Shown in pieces: positions 6,296 to 11,620 of a stretch of 12,819 nucleotides of DNA; positions within the stretch are counted from its first letter, which is position 1, and the number at the start of each line of letters is the position of its first letter. The notes under the pieces are model-generated. The model did not search any database. It was not told where the DNA came from and saw nothing but the letters and a program-made list of their open reading frames with translations. The position numbers and the translations under genes are program-made. The stretch is from a virus (taxonomy: Duplodnaviria; Heunggongvirae; Uroviricota; Caudoviricetes): the IMG/VR virus record IMGVR_UViG_3300030021_000014. One strand, given 5' to 3'.

Positions 6296-8131
6296 TTACC
6301 TGCCAAAGCGCGTATAGCCAACATCATGGCTGACATCAAAACCGCTGGATCGCGTTTCCATAACCCGCATACCCGGAGGCGAATTCACAAAAGAGACCTT
6401 GATCTCACCATCAACTTTTGGCGCAGAAGCTTTGTTAATCATGAAGGGATTCGGGCCTGTGGCACCGGAGGCGTTGTTTGACTGAGCCGGATCTACCGCC
6501 TGATAAGGTGTGTATCCCCGTGCCGGTATTCCCGTCCCATAAGCATCATAAGCACCCGCGCCCCACTGCGCAGAGTTAATGGCATCGACCGTGTCACCGG
6601 AACTGTCGGTAAACCACTCAATAATTGGCTTCAGTTTGTCCCACATATCCTGAAACCACTTAACAACCGGTCCCCAGTTATTGATTACCATCCCCAGCGG
6701 CGACCAGGCAAAAACCTTCTTCAGAAGTTCCCAGCCAGCCTCAAAATAAGGACCAATGGTTTCCCAGAGCTTCTTGAAATAAGGTCCGACAACATCCCAG
6801 TTAGTGATAATTAATCCCGCAGCCAGGGCTATCGCCGTCGCAATCATTCCAATCGGCGTCATCGACATGATCCTGCTGACAATACTGATGGCACCGCCAA
6901 CGCCCATCAATCCCAGTTTCAGAATCGCAAGACCGGCAGCAAGCCCGACGACGCCGCGAATAACCCGGGGATTTTCATCCGCAAACTTCGTGAATTTTTC
7001 CCCTAACTCCCCCAGCCATTGCGTGATATTTTTGGCGTCACCAGAAAATGCGCCGCCAATAGCCGCAAGGCCGTTAGTTGCGGTCCCCGTCATTGCCTCC
7101 CACAGGTTGGACAGCGTACCAAGCTGGGCCTGAACACGTTTATTCAGGCTGGCCTGTTTATTCATCTTCTGCTGGATCTGATCGTAGCCATCCTTTCCTT
7201 TATCGATTAGTGCATTGACCACCTGAAGGGTTTCGGCATCATCACCAAATATTGCCTTAAGTACACCTGTTCGCTTAACGTCGGTCAGTTTTCGCAGCTT
7301 TGCCAGTTGCCTGAACATGTTATCAAGACCGCCAAAACTTCCTTTGCCGTCAGTAAAATCGAGCTGTACCCCGAGTTTCTGGCGGGCCATGATTTTATTG
7401 ACGTCCCTGATTTTCTTAACGCTTAATCCGGACTGGATAACTTTTCGCAGGGCGTTACCTGCCGACTCCCCGTTCATCCCCATCTGATCCATCATGACGC
7501 TGATGGGGGCAAGGCTCTGTGCAGCCTGAAGACCGTCCTTGTTCACCATCTTCAGAACAGAGCTGGTTTTAGTGAAGAAGGACAACATGTTGGTATCGTC
7601 AACACCCAGATAAAACGCCTTCTGGATAGTGTCGAACAGCCCCATCATGTCTTCTGACGCCGTTCCGGTAGCATCCTGCATCTTTGCAGCAAACTCAGCA
7701 GCCGCTTCCGGTGTTTTTTTCAGTTGTACCGCAAGATAAGCTGTCGCTTTACCCACACCGCCAAGAATGTTTTCTGCCGGGATCCCCTGACGCACCAGCA
7801 TCTGCATCATGTTCTGGAAATCAGCCGTTGTACCGGGTAGCTGGTTACCCAGGCCAATAGCCAGTTTATTGATGTCCTGAAAGCTCTTTCCGACCTCGCC
7901 GTTCGCATCCATCATGGCGACTTTCAGCCCGGTGGCGGCGTTTTCCTGATCGGCATAAGATTTCAGGGAAAGCGTCAGACCCGCTGCCAGTCCGCCACCA
8001 AGCGCCAGCCCACCCTGTGACGCTTCTTCCGCCTGGCGTTTAAATCCCCGGATTTTCTTTTGCATTTTCGACAGCGCGGGAGAAAGCCTGTCGACACCGG
8101 TGATCAACGCCTTAAGCTCAAATTCCGCCAT
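6296..8131 (-). CDS. Tail tape measure protein
   Basis: 611 aa, Ala/Gly/Leu/Gln-rich with a hydrophobic segment. Sits between the frameshifted chaperone and the baseplate genes; AGGAG upstream of ATG at 8131. Confidence 0.85.
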   Translation of the reverse strand: MAEFELKALITGVDRLSPALSKMQKKIRGFKRQAEEASQGGLALGGGLAAGLTLSLKSYADQENAATGLKVAMMDANGEVGKSFQDINKLAIGLGNQLPGTTADFQNMMQMLVRQGIPAENILGGVGKATAYLAVQLKKTPEAAAEFAAKMQDATGTASEDMMGLFDTIQKAFYLGVDDTNMLSFFTKTSSVLKMVNKDGLQAAQSLAPISVMMDQMGMNGESAGNALRKVIQSGLSVKKIRDVNKIMARQKLGVQLDFTDGKGSFGGLDNMFRQLAKLRKLTDVKRTGVLKAIFGDDAETLQVVNALIDKGKDGYDQIQQKMNKQASLNKRVQAQLGTLSNLWEAMTGTATNGLAAIGGAFSGDAKNITQWLGELGEKFTKFADENPRVIRGVVGLAAGLAILKLGLMGVGGAISIVSRIMSMTPIGMIATAIALAAGLIITNWDVVGPYFKKLWETIGPYFEAGWELLKKVFAWSPLGMVINNWGPVVKWFQDMWDKLKPIIEWFTDSSGDTVDAINSAQWGAGAYDAYGTGIPARGYTPYQAVDPAQSNNASGATGPNPFMINKASAPKVDGEIKVSFVNSPPGMRVMETRSSGFDVSHDVGYTRFGR

Positions 8132-8542
8132 GTGTGCGTTTCTCCTGCTCTATCCTGTTTGCCTGACTGACCAGCAAGGGAATTTCACTGATCGGCATAT
8201 TCAGCAATTCGAAAGGATTAATGCGCCAGTAGCTGGCGCAGTCAAAGAAGCGATCAGTGAGGTATTCAGCCGTCAGGCCTGGAGGAAAAAACCAGCCACA
8301 AGCCACGCCGCTGCATTCAGGTCTGCCGGAGACATCTGGTCGACAGAGCTTTGCGGCACTTTCGCCAGCCGCACAATGTATTTCGACACCACATGCGCCA
8401 GAAGTCTGACTGACTCATCCTGATTCATCTGGTAGGGATACCCCAGCTCGCGGACATCCTTCCCGGTGGGTTCATCAAACTCCAGTACGGAGAGTGTCTC
8501 ACCATGAGCGATAATCGGTTTCTTTAACTCAAGCTCTTTCAT
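8118..8542 (-). CDS. Tail assembly chaperone, -1 frameshift fusion product (G-T / E-E' analogue)
   Basis: Slippery heptamer T_TTT_TTC on the minus strand (plus coordinates 8285-8291) lies 3 codons before the 0-frame stop. The -1 frame stays open for about 57 more codons to a stop at 8118-8120, 11 nt into the tape measure gene. Confidence 0.55.
8273..8542 (-). CDS. Tail assembly chaperone (short, in-frame product)
   Basis: 89 aa; sits between the tube and tape measure genes, the conserved position of lambda G / P2 E-type chaperones; TAATG coupling to the tube gene. Confidence 0.75.
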   Translation of the reverse strand: MKELELKKPIIAHGETLSVLEFDEPTGKDVRELGYPYQMNQDESVRLLAHVVSKYIVRLAKVPQSSVDQMSPADLNAAAWLVAGFFLQA

Positions 8543-8898
8543 TACTGGTAATCCCCTTCTTCACCGTGGAACTCAAGATCAACCGTGCCTTCTTCGGCAT
8601 TATGGTTCGCTTCGCCGTGCAGCCAGGCGGACGACAATACATAGACCTGACCGTTCGCCAGCTCGGCAGTGATGGTCATCTCATCAGACGAGGTGATTTT
8701 GCTCACCGGAAAATTCTTCGGCACCTTGAAGGTCCCTTTGACATAAGGCGCACGGTGAGTTTCCTTGCGGTCCACTGAACCGTCCAGGCCGATGATGTCA
8801 TCATTGACCGTCCTGTTCATGGGCACCTCAATGCCGCCGGTCAGCGATAGCTGCTGACCGTCAATTTTGAAATAACAGGTTCCCCCGATACGGGCCAT
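8542..8898 (-). CDS. Tail tube protein (Mu gpM-like)
   Basis: 118 aa, immediately downstream of the sheath with TAATG coupling; typical size and position for a contractile-tail tube protein. Confidence 0.8.
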   Translation of the reverse strand: MARIGGTCYFKIDGQQLSLTGGIEVPMNRTVNDDIIGLDGSVDRKETHRAPYVKGTFKVPKNFPVSKITSSDEMTITAELANGQVYVLSSAWLHGEANHNAEEGTVDLEFHGEEGDYQ

Positions 8899-10394
8899 TA
8901 TGCAGACTCCTCTGAATACTGAAGACGGAACTGGTTAACCACGGCAAAGACACGCAACTGGTTAACATAGTCAGACGGGAACAGCGTGTTCAGGCGGTTC
9001 GGATCGCTGGCATCACGCTCCACAACCAGGTACTGCTTAAACAGTTCGTAGTTTTCCACGATCCCCGCACGCTCAAGCTGACGGTAGGTTGCCAGCAGTT
9101 CCCCTTTGATCACCGCCGGTGTGACAATCGCCTGACCGGGACCAAAGCGGGTACCGTCGCTGGCAAGCTTGTGACGCCCGTACTTACTGGTAATGACGGA
9201 TTTCAGTTTGCGCAGCACATACGCGCTGGTATGCAGCGTCTCGCTGTCGAGGTAGCTGTTATCCGCAACACCGTAAGCGTTTTTCCTGTACGTGGTGACA
9301 TCACGCTGAATGCGCAGCACCCCGCTTTCGACATACGCCGTTGCCACGCCATGAGACAGCAGGGTCTGTTGTTCGGTCATCGTGAACCGTTTCCCCTTCG
9401 GCGCAGGCAGCATACCCACCAGCTCACCGGTCTGCGTGGGACGTGCCGGATCGTTGCGAATAAACACCGCTGCGCGGGCGGTACGGCTTGCCGCCAGCTC
9501 GTCGGCAGGCGTCTGGGTCTCTTTTTCGTATCCCGCCAGGGTAATGTGCTGCTGGTTAAACTGGTCACCTGCGTTCACCAGTTCTGACAGCGTGCCGATC
9601 TTTGCCGTATACACATGACCATACAGCTGACGCGCATAGCTCCAGCGACCGCTGGTATCGTTCATCTCTGTCACCAGCGTGTTAACGGAGGCCGTGTCGT
9701 TGAACGGCAGGCCAATATAATCAAACGGCTCATCCGCCATTGCAGCCACCGCGCCGGTGAGAACCGGAGCGCCCGTTCCGGCGCTCCCCGTCGCCACAGC
9801 AATCTGTACGCCCGCTGGCAGCACTTCGCCCCCACCAAAGCCGTAGTAATTGAGGCTGACAGGAATTTCATTCCCGCAAAGCCCCTTATGACGCGCGGTC
9901 AGCGTGACCACGCCTGCCGAAGATGAGGCCGTAAACGGCAGGGCCGGAACGGCATTAATGGCATCTTTGATACTGCTGGCAATCGTCGTGACGTTATCGC
10001 CGTTGGTCACCGGTGCCTGCACGCGGGTACGTCCCACATAAACATTCACCGTGCCGGTTTCGGTTGCCGCCCCGGTCACCGTCAGCGTAACCGTTGCCGC
10101 CGCGCCCGTTGATTCAGGAACGGCAATTACATACAGTTCACCAAACGGGTCGGTCTGGCGATAAGCCTCGACCATACGCGCCAGCTGACTTCCCGCACCA
10201 CAAATCTGGCGTGCATAGTCTGCCGACGGCATCAGCACCAGACTGTTGGCAACAATCTCTGCACCGTTATTGGCATGACCAATCAGCAGCGATGCTCCGC
10301 TGTCCTGTGCAGTATTCGCAGCCTGGTTATCCATTTCCGCATAAAACAGCGGAACCAGCGTATTCGACGGAATGGTGTTAAAGCTTATCGTCAT
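8898..10394 (-). CDS. Tail sheath protein (Mu gpL-like)
   Basis: 498 aa (MTISFNTIPSNT...); size, composition and position upstream of the tube gene. Confidence 0.9.
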   Translation of the reverse strand: MTISFNTIPSNTLVPLFYAEMDNQAANTAQDSGASLLIGHANNGAEIVANSLVLMPSADYARQICGAGSQLARMVEAYRQTDPFGELYVIAVPESTGAAATVTLTVTGAATETGTVNVYVGRTRVQAPVTNGDNVTTIASSIKDAINAVPALPFTASSSAGVVTLTARHKGLCGNEIPVSLNYYGFGGGEVLPAGVQIAVATGSAGTGAPVLTGAVAAMADEPFDYIGLPFNDTASVNTLVTEMNDTSGRWSYARQLYGHVYTAKIGTLSELVNAGDQFNQQHITLAGYEKETQTPADELAASRTARAAVFIRNDPARPTQTGELVGMLPAPKGKRFTMTEQQTLLSHGVATAYVESGVLRIQRDVTTYRKNAYGVADNSYLDSETLHTSAYVLRKLKSVITSKYGRHKLASDGTRFGPGQAIVTPAVIKGELLATYRQLERAGIVENYELFKQYLVVERDASDPNRLNTLFPSDYVNQLRVFAVVNQFRLQYSEESA

Positions 10395-10556: not shown

Positions 10557-11117
10557 TCAGGAAGGAAGGGGTATTTCGGTGTGATGTTCGATATCGCCGT
10601 CAGGCCCGTTACCGGGATCGAGATAATCAACATCAATCGCCAGCGTTCGCAGTTCATCCAGACTGTTCAGGTCATCCTGCTGGCGGGTATCGTCTTCGGT
10701 CAGCTCGCTGATGACCGAAAAATCGAACTGATAAATCAGCTCATGACGATTCAGATCCAGCAGCGTGCCGCCGTCATAGGTAATCGGGTTACCACACGCT
10801 TCCGGGTTCCAGCCCAGCAGAGCCTTAAAGAGCATCTGCCGGACATCGTCCACCACATCATACGAGGCAAACTGACCGCGCTCATCACGCCCGTTACTCA
10901 GTATGACAACCACGGAGAAGCCCTCTTTCAGCTCCTGCCAGTAGTCGGTCTGGCTTTTGTTTTCTCCCGGAGAGTCATCACCCGGTACCACATATGCCGC
11001 CGGGAGCTTCAGCTTTCCGACCTCCGGCAGATTTTTGAACTGGGCCGCGCCTGCCACCCGGTTTTCAAAATACGGACAGCGGGCACGCAGCGCAGCAATA
11101 ACAGGAGTCAGTTTCAT
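10557..11117 (-). CDS. Tail terminator / completion candidate (Gp37-family-like)
   Basis: 186 aa; ATGA overlap with the gp10-like gene; function inferred from its position between head-tail joining genes and the sheath. Confidence 0.55.
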   Translation of the reverse strand: MKLTPVIAALRARCPYFENRVAGAAQFKNLPEVGKLKLPAAYVVPGDDSPGENKSQTDYWQELKEGFSVVVILSNGRDERGQFASYDVVDDVRQMLFKALLGWNPEACGNPITYDGGTLLDLNRHELIYQFDFSVISELTEDDTRQQDDLNSLDELRTLAIDVDYLDPGNGPDGDIEHHTEIPLPS

Positions 11118-11620
11118 CTGTGTCGTCGCTCCGGCTTCAGTGATTTACGCAATTCCCGCGCCAGAAAATAGCGTGTCCAGCTGCGGTTCTTTTCAAGCGT
11201 TTCCACCATGAAGTTATTACGTGGAGCCAGTCGCCAGCCGCTGCCACCGGATGCACCACGATGATGGCTGCGACGACGCTTTGCCCCTCGCCTCACGCCA
11301 TAGAACAAAAAAGCCGGATAAAAATCACCGGTGATACGGCGGTTTCCCTCTCCATTACGCTGGTTAGGGGCTATACGTGCCATAAAACCAGGGCGATGTT
11401 TACTGGCTCTGGGTACCATGTAACCAATCGAACGAGCCAGGCGTCCGGTCTGATAACCGGGGTTTTCACCCGGTGCCGACCGCGCACGGCGCATCACCAG
11501 CCGACGGGCATCACGCATATGACGCTGACCAATCGTGACAAACGCCCGCCGGACACGGGCGCGGTTAAAGCGCATCTCCGCGGGCTGCTGAAAATCAACG
11601 TGCAAAAAGGAAGTCGTCAT
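11114..11620 (-). CDS. HK97 gp10-family head-tail joining protein
   Basis: 168 aa, basic; GGAGG 5-6 nt upstream of ATG at 11620; position after the head closure gene. Confidence 0.65.
   Translation of the reverse strand: MTTSFLHVDFQQPAEMRFNRARVRRAFVTIGQRHMRDARRLVMRRARSAPGENPGYQTGRLARSIGYMVPRASKHRPGFMARIAPNQRNGEGNRRITGDFYPAFLFYGVRRGAKRRRSHHRGASGGSGWRLAPRNNFMVETLEKNRSWTRYFLARELRKSLKPERRHR

What the first reader, a model, noticed from the sequence alone, without database searches (positions are those of the whole stretch)
8118..8542. Programmed -1 ribosomal frameshift in the tail assembly chaperone
The 89-aa chaperone ORF and a 62-codon ORF in the -1 frame overlap exactly at a canonical slippery heptamer T_TTT_TTC (minus strand, plus coordinates 8285-8291), three codons before the 0-frame stop. 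The extension ends inside the start of the tape measure gene. This is the conserved G/GT-type arrangement of long-tailed phages and would give a fusion of about 143 aa. Automated annotation would likely call two separate small genes or miss the second.
Basis: partly seen in the sequence, partly recalled or inferred. Interest (0 to 1): 0.45.

Follow-up and report, generated by a model that had tools for sequence, protein, structure and literature searches.

The report
Frameshifted tail chaperone, SfV-like prophage
This is a correct but ordinary call: an E. coli SfV-like prophage carries the well-known "slippery" site that lets ribosomes make a short and a long tail-assembly chaperone from one gene, and public annotations simply omit the long form.

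Summary
On the minus strand an 89-aa ORF (8542..8273, Pfam Phage_TAC_7) lies between the tail tube gene and the tape measure gene. It carries an in-phase T_TTT_TTC (8291..8285) three codons before its stop. The -1 frame stays open from there to a TGA at 8120..8118, 14 nt inside the tape measure gene. The fusion is 141 aa, not about 143.

- In 29 distinct homologous genes (Enterobacterales, Burkholderia, Pseudomonas, Bordetella, P2) the site is always NNT TTT TTN, although flanking synonymous positions vary freely.
- The codon-wobble periodicity jumps by -1 exactly at the heptamer.
- 18 of 27 homologues have no start codon for the -1 ORF.
- The joined protein aligns through the junction with P2 E+E', an accepted -1 frameshift.

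One relative, Paraburkholderia phage IPK, lacks the heptamer but still keeps its second domain in the -1 frame.

No checked record of this lineage annotates the slippage. This is a new, unannotated member of a well-known kind, so interest is low. One unexplained extra is a conserved, unusually stable RNA structure 24-100 nt downstream of the site. No experiment exists for this locus.

The parts
8273..8542 (-). 0-frame tail assembly chaperone ORF (89 aa; equivalent to P2 E and lambda G), ATG 8542, stop TGA 8275..8273
   Evidence: Pfam PF10109 Phage_TAC_7, E=7e-15, 55.2 bits against a cut-off of 25. phrog_166 'tail protein'. PGAP names it 'phage tail assembly protein' WP_000661047.1.
8285..8291 (-). 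Slippery heptamer T_TTT_TTC. 0-frame codons 85-86 (UUU UUC) sit in the P and A sites. After the slip the ribosome reads UUU UUU.
   Evidence: The pattern NNT TTT TTN is invariant in 29 distinct homologous genes. Codon entropy is zero at GGT, TTT and TTC, against a mean of 1.11 bits for other conserved-residue codons.
8118..8285 (-). -1 frame extension (equivalent to P2 E' and lambda T): 55 codons, 8285..8121, PPGLTAEY...THGGI, then stop TGA 8120..8118, 14 nt inside the tape measure gene
   Evidence: phrog_32181, E=5e-40. The wobble periodicity follows the -1 frame. The joined protein aligns with P2 E+E' through the junction.
8542..8898 (-). Tail tube gene (118 aa). Its stop overlaps the chaperone ATG (TAATG).
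   Evidence: PF10618, E=2e-33. phrog_185.
8898..10394 (-). Tail sheath gene (498 aa)
   Evidence: PF04984, PF17482 and PF17481. phrog_165.
6296..8131 (-). Tail tape measure gene (611 aa), ATG 8131, with its own AGGAG (8146..8142) 10 nt upstream, inside the -1 extension
   Evidence: PF10145. TIGR01760. Upstream sequence printed.
8222..8240 (-). Conserved 8-bp GC-rich hairpin UGCGCCAG-CUA-CUGGCGCA, beginning 45 nt (44-nt spacer) 3' of the heptamer. Its role is unknown and it may not belong to the frameshift signal.
   Evidence: RNAalifold on 12 species. Its codons TGC, GCC, TAC and CGC show almost no synonymous variation. 91% of cells are paired.
8185..8260 (-). Long-range 10-bp stem UCACUGAUCG (8260..8251) with CGAUCAGUGA (8194..8185), enclosing the hairpin. 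Role unknown.
   Evidence: The fold of 8284..8185 has z=-3.75, with 0 of 200 shuffles as stable. Only 0.5% of 212 windows on the same strand reach that value. Helix 2 is 70.8% paired, and 6 of its pairs change on both sides.

Best explanation
This is a programmed -1 ribosomal frameshift in the tail assembly chaperone gene of an SfV/SfII-like prophage of E. coli, which has a Mu-like contractile tail.

Mechanism:
1. Ribosomes start at ATG 8542.
2. Most read through UUU UUC, add Leu-Gln-Ala and stop at UGA 8275..8273. This gives the 89-aa chaperone.
3. A minority slip back one base on U_UUU_UUC. Both tRNA-Phe can re-pair, on UUU and UUU.
4. Those ribosomes continue with CCU CCA GGC..., add 55 residues and stop at UGA 8120..8118. 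This gives a 141-aa protein with the same first 86 residues.

By analogy with lambda G/GT and P2 E/E+E', the shared N-terminal part would coat the tape measure protein. The -1-encoded C-terminal domain would recruit the tube protein, and the shift frequency would fix the ratio of the two products.

What is shown: the sequence anatomy, the family membership, nucleotide-level conservation of the site, coding in the -1 frame, and homology to P2 E+E'.

What is inferred: that slippage really occurs, its frequency, that it is ribosomal, and the binding roles of the two domains.
For: - Anatomy and phase.
- Gene order sheath-tube-chaperone-tape measure, with PF10109, PF10618 and PF10145.
- tblastn of the joined protein finds both halves, in two frames, in phages down to 39% identity.
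- In SfV, EPP-1, AH07, SfIV, ST64B, As1, phiP27, BgVeeders33, DVM-2008, PG1 and PBb002 an in-phase T_TTT_TT[C/T/G] sits at the homologous place. The -1 frame runs to within -2 to +14 nt of the tape measure start. The 0-frame tail varies (3, 10, 16 or 21 codons) and is not conserved.
- The same holds in 18 loci from other species.
- In 29 distinct genes the codon before the P site always ends in T, even when its amino acid changes (GGT 23, CGT 2, AAT, AGT, CCT, GAT). The P codon is TTT in 29 of 29, although TTT:TTC is 19:18 elsewhere in these genes. The adjacent Ala codon uses all four synonyms.
- The only run of zero-entropy codons in the first part of the gene is GGT-TTT-TTC.
- Variable columns peak at 0-frame codon position 3 before the heptamer (79 of 83). 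After it they peak at -1-frame position 3 (46 of 52).
- 18 of 27 homologues have no ATG, GTG or TTG in the -1 frame at or upstream of the site, and none has a Shine-Dalgarno sequence.
- Profile comparison with P2 E+E' gives 95% probability, E=3e-8, over 122 columns across the junction. P2 is annotated as a joined CDS with a -1 frameshift at TTTTTTG, E 91 aa and E+E' 142 aa (PMC3091744).
- U_UUU_UUC and U_UUU_UUU are shift-prone and avoided in E. coli genes (PMC4066793).
- The functional model for G/GT is in PMC5009743.
Against: - There is no direct evidence (protein, reporter or ribosome profiling) for this locus or for SfV in anything I could read.
- A bare UUUUUUC gave only 0.12% shifting in an E. 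coli reporter without a stimulator (PMC4066793 supplement).
- I found no convincing stimulator at the canonical 5-9 nt spacing. Only a weak 4-bp hairpin sits there, and one of its pairs is broken in 7 of 12 sequences.
- No Shine-Dalgarno-like element is conserved upstream.
- One relative, Paraburkholderia phage IPK (an UNVERIFIED record), encodes GFF as GGC TTC TTC, so the heptamer is not universal.
- A T6 run could in principle also support transcriptional slippage.
Confidence: 0.9

Rival explanations
1. Transcriptional slippage. RNA polymerase adds one U on the run of six, so a fraction of mRNAs encode the 141-aa protein in a single frame.
For: The site is a homopolymer run, T6 here and T7 in the SfIV/ST64B clade. 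The resulting protein would be identical (GFFPP), so the conserved protein features do not discriminate. Both mechanisms are reviewed together in PMC5009743.
Against: - The run is always in the phase NNT TTT TTN in 29 of 29 genes. NNV TTT TTT would encode the same Phe-Phe with a T6 run and is never seen. Polymerase slippage would not care about phase.
- From my own knowledge, not tested here: efficient slippage by E. coli RNA polymerase needs runs of about 8-9 or more.
- The homologous P2 site TTTTTTG is accepted as translational (PMC3091744).
Confidence: 0.04
2. Two independent genes. The 62-codon ORF is translated on its own from GTG 8306, as some automated annotations imply.
For: The ORF exists with a GTG start. 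It is annotated as a separate 'hypothetical protein' in vB_EcoM-689R6 and on 921 contigs. phrog_32181 is built from such calls.
Against: No Shine-Dalgarno-like sequence precedes the GTG. 18 of 27 homologues have no start codon at all in the -1 frame at or upstream of the site, yet the -1 peptide is conserved. The homologous P2 E' is made only as a fusion.
Confidence: 0.02
3. Chance overlap or decay. Either the heptamer is accidental, or the locus is a once-single 141-aa gene broken by a 1-nt deletion in a defective prophage.
For: Two IMG/VR contigs carry an in-frame version with an extra G, GCTGGGTTTTTTCC. One is deposited as KEN10546.1, 141 aa. Prophage genes often decay.
Against: The two-frame arrangement is the rule: 78 of 80 IMG/VR loci and every diverged lineage examined. 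None of 5,426 complete E. coli genomes carries the in-frame variant. Both frames show purifying selection, and the site shows synonymous-site suppression.
Confidence: 0.02

Closest known systems
Phage P2 E / E+E' (-1 frameshift at TTTTTTG in the FETUD tail operon; Christie et al. 2002, as cited in PMC3091744)
   Same: - Same Pfam family for the first part, PF10109.
- Same position, after the tube gene and before the tape measure gene.
- Almost the same sizes: 91 and 142 aa in P2, 89 and 141 aa here.
- The heptamer sits at the homologous residues, ..VVGF|L in P2 and ..VAGF|F here.
- The -1 stop overlaps the tape measure start.
- The joined proteins align through the junction (hhalign 95%, E=3e-8).
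   Different: - Z is C here and G in P2.
- The 0-frame tail is 3 codons here and 6 in P2.
- The -1 domain here does not reach Pfam PF06528 (P2 GpE), which scores E=1e-21 on P2.
- The surrounding tail module is Mu-like, not P2-like.
- The P2 shift has been shown experimentally. This one has not.
Phage lambda G / GT (-1 frameshift at G_GGA_AAG; Levin 1993; Xu, Hendrix and Duda 2004, 2013, 2014, as summarised in PMC5009743)
   Same: Same logic and gene position. A chaperone and a -1-extended chaperone share an N-terminus. They are made in a fixed ratio, and neither is in the virion.
   Different: No detectable sequence similarity to lambda G. The slippery heptamer differs. Lambda has a non-contractile tail. 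The binding roles (first part to tape measure, second part to tube) are only transferred by analogy.
Phage Mu gp41 (-2 frameshift, per PMC2628397 and PMC5009743)
   Same: The tail module of this window is Mu-like: sheath L, tube M, DNA circulation protein, gp44-48 homologues. Mu gp41 sits at the same position.
   Different: Mu gp41 is 144 aa and is reported to use -2. Here the +1/-2 frame is closed (16 codons, ending just after the 0-frame stop) and the -1 frame is the one conserved.
Stimulated bacterial -1 frameshift signals (dnaX, IS911, IS3)
   Same: An X_XXY_YYZ heptamer that allows tandem tRNA slippage.
   Different: Those signals have a Shine-Dalgarno-like element upstream and/or a hairpin or pseudoknot 5-9 nt downstream. 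Here neither is convincing. The stable conserved structure starts 24-44 nt downstream.

Membership tests
Tail assembly chaperone with programmed frameshift (G/GT type, Xu et al. 2004) | The gene lies between the major tail (tube) gene and the tape measure gene | tested here: met
   Tube 8898..8542 (PF10618), chaperone 8542..8273, tape measure 8131..6296 (PF10145, TIGR01760).
Tail assembly chaperone with programmed frameshift (G/GT type, Xu et al. 2004) | A second ORF overlaps the 3' end in another frame, extends to about the tape measure start, and has no start signal of its own | tested here: met
   The -1 frame is open to 8118, 14 nt into the tape measure gene. No Shine-Dalgarno sequence precedes GTG 8306, and 18 of 27 homologues have no start codon.
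Tail assembly chaperone with programmed frameshift (G/GT type, Xu et al. 2004) | An in-phase slippery sequence lies in the overlap and is conserved among relatives | tested here: met
   T_TTT_TTC at 8291..8285. NNT TTT TTN in 29 of 29 distinct genes. Synonymous variation is suppressed there. The exception is phage IPK.
Tail assembly chaperone with programmed frameshift (G/GT type, Xu et al. 2004) | Both products are made in a fixed ratio, both are needed for tail assembly, and both are absent from virions | not testable with these tools
   Needs protein detection and genetics. No paper on this for SfV-like phages was found.
Tail assembly chaperone with programmed frameshift (G/GT type, Xu et al. 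2004) | The first part binds the tape measure protein and the frameshift-encoded domain binds the tube protein | not testable with these tools
   Known for lambda only (PMC5009743). The structure model of the fusion was too poor to use (pLDDT 47).
Pfam PF10109 Phage_TAC_7 (P2 E / Mu gp41 family) | Score above the curated gathering threshold | tested here: met
   55.2 bits against a cut-off of 25, residues 4-86 on profile positions 2-78 of 79.
P2 E+E' type | Homology of the frameshift-encoded domain to P2 E' (Pfam PF06528 Phage_P2_GpE) | tested here: inconclusive
   PF06528 is not hit by this -1 domain even at E<=1, and the Bordetella relative reaches only E=0.0098, below threshold. Against that, profile-to-sequence alignment with P2 E+E' covers the domain (95%, E=3e-8), and the motif [FY][HW]W..P.EL is shared.
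Mu gp41 type (-2 frameshift) | A conserved extension in the +1/-2 frame | tested here: not met
   The +1/-2 frame is open for only 16 codons and closes 5 nt after the 0-frame stop.
Canonical stimulated -1 frameshift signal | A stable hairpin or pseudoknot 5-9 nt downstream, or a Shine-Dalgarno-like element 6-17 nt upstream | tested here: not met
   The first 60 nt after the heptamer (8284..8225) fold no better than shuffles, z=+0.15; by mononucleotide shuffles the first 50 nt give z=+1.15. Only a 4-bp hairpin sits at a 5-nt spacer, with one pair broken in 7 of 12 sequences. No Shine-Dalgarno-like sequence lies upstream in the window (my reading).

The most novel reading that the evidence does not exclude
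The frameshift frequency may not be set by the bare heptamer. It may be tuned by the conserved, unusually stable RNA structure that starts 24-44 nt downstream (the 10-bp stem 8260..8251 with 8194..8185, enclosing the hairpin 8240..8222).

This would be a distal, non-canonical modulator. It might act on the leading frameshifted ribosome and those queued behind it, or on mRNA fate. That could explain why E/E'-type sites such as P2's shift far more in their native context than the bare heptamers do in reporters.

Comparable excess structure is seen in P2 (z=-3.3), EPP-1 (-4.55) and Burkholderia relatives (-3.96 and -2.55). It is absent from the SfIV/ST64B/phiP27 and Bordetella clades.
Probability: 0.12. 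Interest if true: 0.4.

Novelty: new member of a known kind. Interest (0 to 1): 0.17.

Why it matters
The value is mostly practical. The long chaperone form is missing from every annotation I checked for this prophage family. That covers PGAP on complete E. coli genomes and the records of SfV, SfII, EPP-1, AH07, SfIV, ST64B, phiP27 and others. About 1,060 of 5,426 complete E. coli genomes match this region, and about 900 of them carry the stretch around the slip site.

A joined CDS, join(8542..8285, 8285..8118) on the minus strand, would repair this. It would also remove spurious 60-63-aa 'hypothetical proteins'.

The biology adds nothing new in principle. It is one more instance of the conserved tail-chaperone frameshift, close to P2 E/E+E'. 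Two points could interest recoding specialists: the nucleotide-level conservation of T_TTT_TTN across four bacterial orders, and the distal conserved RNA structure.

Tried and rejected
- Literature: Xu, Hendrix and Duda 2004, the SfV genome paper and Christie 2002 are not held in the library. I therefore could not check whether SfV orf13 was already listed as a frameshift case. Searches for SfV or ST64B with 'frameshift' found nothing relevant.
- NCBIfam has no model for the chaperone.
- The PDB holds no relative detectable by sequence.
The in-frame natural variant P0017, folded alone, gave pLDDT 47, which is unusable, so I ran no fold search.
- A genome-contig scan with the 10-sequence alignment failed for lack of a conserved stretch. 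The 4-sequence alignment worked but returned only 18 loci. One of its two search patterns contained ...VAGFF. That biases towards Phe-Phe, though not towards the particular codons.
- No canonical downstream stimulator was found.
- I saw no conserved upstream Shine-Dalgarno-like element. GGTGG or GGAGGTG occurs in some relatives but not in the window.
- No terminator-like or promoter-like site lies in 7900..8700.
- The hairpin palindrome does not recur elsewhere in the window.
- -2/+1 shifting as in Mu is rejected because that frame is closed.
Full report
**1. What is in the sequence**

All genes of interest are on the minus strand. Searches show an 89-aa ORF with ATG at 8542 and TGA at 8275..8273. 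Its last codons are GCT GGT TTT TTC CTC CAG GCC TGA.

Plus coordinates 8285-8291 read TTTTTTC on the minus strand, in the phase T_TTT_TTC. The first T is the wobble base of Gly-84. UUU and UUC are codons 85 and 86. Three sense codons follow before the stop.

The -1 frame is open across this point and continues to TGA at 8120..8118. The next gene starts at ATG 8131, so the -1 stop lies 14 nt inside it.

A tandem -1 slip gives MKEL...WLVAGFF|PPGLTAEY...RTHGGI.

**2. Context**

Pfam assigns the flanking genes as follows:

| Window coordinates | Assignment |
|---|---|
| 10394..8898 | tail sheath |
| 8898..8542 | tail tube (PF10618) |
| 8542..8273 | PF10109 Phage_TAC_7, 'tail assembly chaperone proteins, E, or 41 or 14' (55 bits, cut-off 25) |
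| 8131..6296 | tape measure (PF10145; TIGR01760) |
| downstream | Mu-type DNA circulation, gp44/P, gp45, gp46, baseplate J and gp48 homologues |
| upstream | head-tail connector, head completion, tail terminator and DUF2635 genes |

The DNA is 100% identical to many E. coli chromosomes and 98-99% identical to the Shigella phages SfII, SfV and SfI. The window is therefore the Mu-like contractile-tail module of an SfV-like prophage.

**3. Is it more than chance?**

The 17 minus-strand genes of the window (3,928 codons) contain six in-phase X_XXY_YYZ heptamers. Only this one is followed by a long -1 ORF: 55 codons, against 0-29 for the others. It is also the only one placed just before a stop, with the -1 frame ending at the next gene's start. 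The comparative data below settle the point.

**4. Comparative evidence**

*Phage records.* tblastn with the joined 141-aa protein against 50,697 phage records found 30 records. In 23 of them the two halves were found as two pieces in two frames, down to 39% identity. I read one representative of each of 11 lineages (scripts).

Ten lineages have an in-phase T_TTT_TTC, T_TTT_TTT or T_TTT_TTG at the homologous residues (..AGFF, ..RFF, ..NFF, ..SFF, ..PFL, ..DFL):
- SfV/SfII
- Edwardsiella EPP-1
- Pantoea AH07
- SfIV
- ST64B/As1
- phiP27
- Burkholderia BgVeeders33
- Pseudomonas DVM-2008
- Pseudomonas/Stutzerimonas PG1
- Bordetella PBb002

In these ten the -1 frame runs to within -2 to +14 nt of the tape measure ATG. 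The joined products are 129-150 aa. The 0-frame tail after the site is 3, 10, 16 or 21 codons long and is not conserved. The -1 peptide is conserved, with the motif [YF]-W-[RK]-[ILV]-[ND]-P-x-E ... A-N-R-I.

*Other species.* Eighteen further loci from the one-genome-per-species collection all show the same arrangement. They include Buttiauxella, Citrobacter, Scandinavium, Kluyvera, Erwinia, Pantoea, Kosakonia, Burkholderia and Pseudogulbenkiania. One of the two retrieval patterns contained ..VAGFF. This biases towards Phe-Phe but not towards particular codons.

*Nucleotide-level constraint.* Over 29 distinct gene sequences:
- The codon before the P site always ends in T, even where its amino acid differs (GGT 23, CGT 2, AAT, AGT, CCT, GAT).
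- The P-site codon is TTT in 29 of 29, although TTT:TTC is 19:18 elsewhere in these genes.
- GGT is only 34% of Gly codons elsewhere in these genes.
- The Ala codon immediately upstream uses all four synonyms.

In 11 SfV-like species, GGT, TTT and TTC have zero codon entropy, and they form the only such run in the first part of the gene. The mean for the 50 conserved-residue codons is 1.11 bits.

*Reading frame.* In the same 11 species, variable columns concentrate at 0-frame codon position 3 before the heptamer (79 of 83, against 40 and 30 of 83 at positions 1 and 2). After it they concentrate at what is position 3 of the -1 frame (46 of 52) and are fewest at its position 2 (23 of 52). The coding frame under selection therefore changes by -1 exactly at the heptamer.

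*No independent start.* 18 of 27 homologues have no ATG, GTG or TTG in the -1 frame at or upstream of the site, and no candidate has a Shine-Dalgarno-like sequence. This includes the window's GTG at 8306.

**5. Relation to characterised systems**

P2 is annotated with E (91 aa) and a joined CDS E+E' (142 aa), with 'site of -1 translational frameshift' at T_TTT_TTG, six codons before the E stop. E' ends inside the tape measure gene T (PMC3091744).

A profile of ten joined proteins from this family aligns with P2 E+E' over 122 columns, straight through the junction (hhalign probability 95%, E=3e-8). The slip sites are at homologous residues. The E' motif FHWPPSEL corresponds to YWRINPFEL here and is literally FHWPPSEL in the Bordetella relative.

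Pfam's PF06528 (P2 GpE, which is the E' part) does not detect the window's -1 domain. That domain is therefore a divergent version. It is captured only by phrog_32181, a family of 'unknown function' built from stand-alone ORF calls.

Lambda G/GT is the functional paradigm. The two products are made at about 30:1. The first part binds the tape measure protein and the T domain binds the tube protein. Neither is in the virion (PMC5009743).

Mu, whose tail module otherwise resembles this one, is reported to use -2 (PMC2628397 and PMC5009743). Here the +1/-2 frame is closed after 16 codons.

**6. Mechanism and what remains inferred**

U_UUU_UUC lets both tRNA-Phe re-pair one base back. U_UUU_UUC and U_UUU_UUU are among the motifs that are shift-prone and under-represented in E. 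coli genes (PMC4066793).

Reporter values from that paper's supplement for UUUUUUC are:

| Context | Shifting |
|---|---|
| no stimulator | 0.12% |
| IS911 stimulators | 0.89% |
| IS3 pseudoknot | 7.6% |

UUUUUUG, the P2 motif, gave 0.118% bare. Yet P2's native efficiency is said to be 2-3 times that of lambda. Context evidently matters.

I found no canonical stimulator:
- The first 60 nt after the heptamer (8284..8225) fold no better than shuffles, z=+0.15. By mononucleotide shuffles the first 50 nt give z=+1.15 in the window and mostly -1.4 to +1.7 in 15 relatives, with one at -2.4.
- The only element at the right spacing is a 4-bp hairpin. One of its pairs is broken in 7 of 12 sequences.
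- No upstream Shine-Dalgarno-like element is conserved.

The actual efficiency is unknown. So is the assignment of slippage to the ribosome rather than RNA polymerase. The strict phase NNT TTT TTN argues for the ribosome: NNV TTT TTT would encode the same Phe-Phe with the same run length and is never seen. A mass-spectrometry junction peptide would not separate the two mechanisms. cDNA sequencing would.

**7. An unexplained extra**

The 100 nt after the heptamer (8284..8185) fold at -32 kcal/mol with z=-3.75, and 0 of 200 shuffles do as well. Among 212 windows of 100 nt on the same strand, the mean z is -0.58, the sd is 1.09, and only 0.5% reach -3.75.

The fold has two main elements:
- a perfect 10-bp long-range stem, 8260..8251 with 8194..8185;
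- inside it, an 8-bp GC hairpin, 8240..8222.

The hairpin's codons are TGC, GCC, TAC and CGC, within the motif CASYWR. They are almost invariant at synonymous sites across 11 species, whereas neighbouring conserved residues vary freely.

On 12 distinct sequences, 81% of cells pair, against 76% in shuffles (0 of 500 reach the observed value). The long stem has six pairs that change on both sides. One caveat applies: I derived the structure from one of the aligned sequences.

With a spacer of 24-44 nt the structure is too far away to be a classical stimulator. Similar excess structure occurs in P2, EPP-1 and the Burkholderia relatives, but not in the SfIV/ST64B/phiP27 or Bordetella clades. I leave its function open.

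**8. Exceptions and variants**

- Paraburkholderia phage IPK (an UNVERIFIED record) encodes GFF as GGC TTC TTC. Its conserved second domain is still in the -1 frame, but that frame opens only 7 nt before the 0-frame stop (GAG GGC GCG TAA). If the sequence is right, its recoding site has moved.
- Two IMG/VR contigs from one E. coli sequencing project carry an extra G (GCT GGG TTT TTT CCT). This puts both parts in one frame and encodes exactly the predicted fusion. One is deposited as KEN10546.1.
- None of 5,426 complete E. coli genomes has this variant. It is either a rare mutant that is probably tail-defective, or a sequencing error.

**9. Verdict**

- Observation: confirmed.
- Interpretation: supported, with about 0.9 confidence in a programmed -1 ribosomal frameshift.
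- Novelty: an unannotated member of a well-known kind. It may already be listed in Xu et al. 2004, which I could not read.
- Interest: low, 0.17. The main value is fixing annotation.

Noticed in passing
window 8185-8260 (minus strand); hairpin 8222-8240: There is a conserved, unusually stable RNA structure 24-100 nt 3' of the slip site (z=-3.75, top ~1% of windows on this strand). Synonymous variation is suppressed in the hairpin codons TGC, GCC, TAC and CGC. It lies too far away for a canonical frameshift stimulator, and its function is unknown.
   Followed up: partly
L004:2501-2923 and L005:2501-2923 (IMG/VR UViG 2585427730_000011 and 2585427747_000001): An extra G before the T run (GCTGGGTTTTTTCC) fuses both parts in one frame, giving exactly the predicted 141-aa protein (KEN10546.1, 'mu-like prophage FluMu gp41 family protein'). 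The variant is absent from all 5,426 complete E. coli genomes. It is either a rare mutant, probably tail-defective, or a sequencing error.
   Followed up: partly
L090:689-1200 (Paraburkholderia phage IPK, PV588664.1, UNVERIFIED): This homologue has no T run, and GFF is encoded as GGC TTC TTC. The conserved second domain is still in the -1 frame, but the frames overlap by only 7 nt just before the 0-frame stop (GAG GGC GCG TAA). The recoding site has apparently moved, or the record contains errors.
   Followed up: partly
window 11306-11312 (minus strand), in gene 11620..11114: A second in-phase T_TTT_TTG heptamer lies in an unassigned 168-aa head-tail gene. The -1 frame runs only 29 codons after it, and 63 0-frame codons remain. 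It is probably chance. I did not check it in relatives.
   Followed up: no
window 8118-8131 compared with L002:1970-1977 (SfV): In the window the -1 ORF ends 14 nt inside the tape measure gene (...THGGI*). In SfV and most relatives it ends 8 nt inside (...THG*). A change that is synonymous in the tape measure gene (GCT to GCG at codon 2) removes the earlier stop and adds two residues to the long chaperone.
   Followed up: yes
L001 (NZ_CP024273.1 186823-187234): The PGAP locus tags jump from A5T63_RS01050 (chaperone) to A5T63_RS01060 (tape measure), and the 141-nt stretch between them is unannotated. A call for the -1 ORF may once have existed and been dropped.
   Followed up: no
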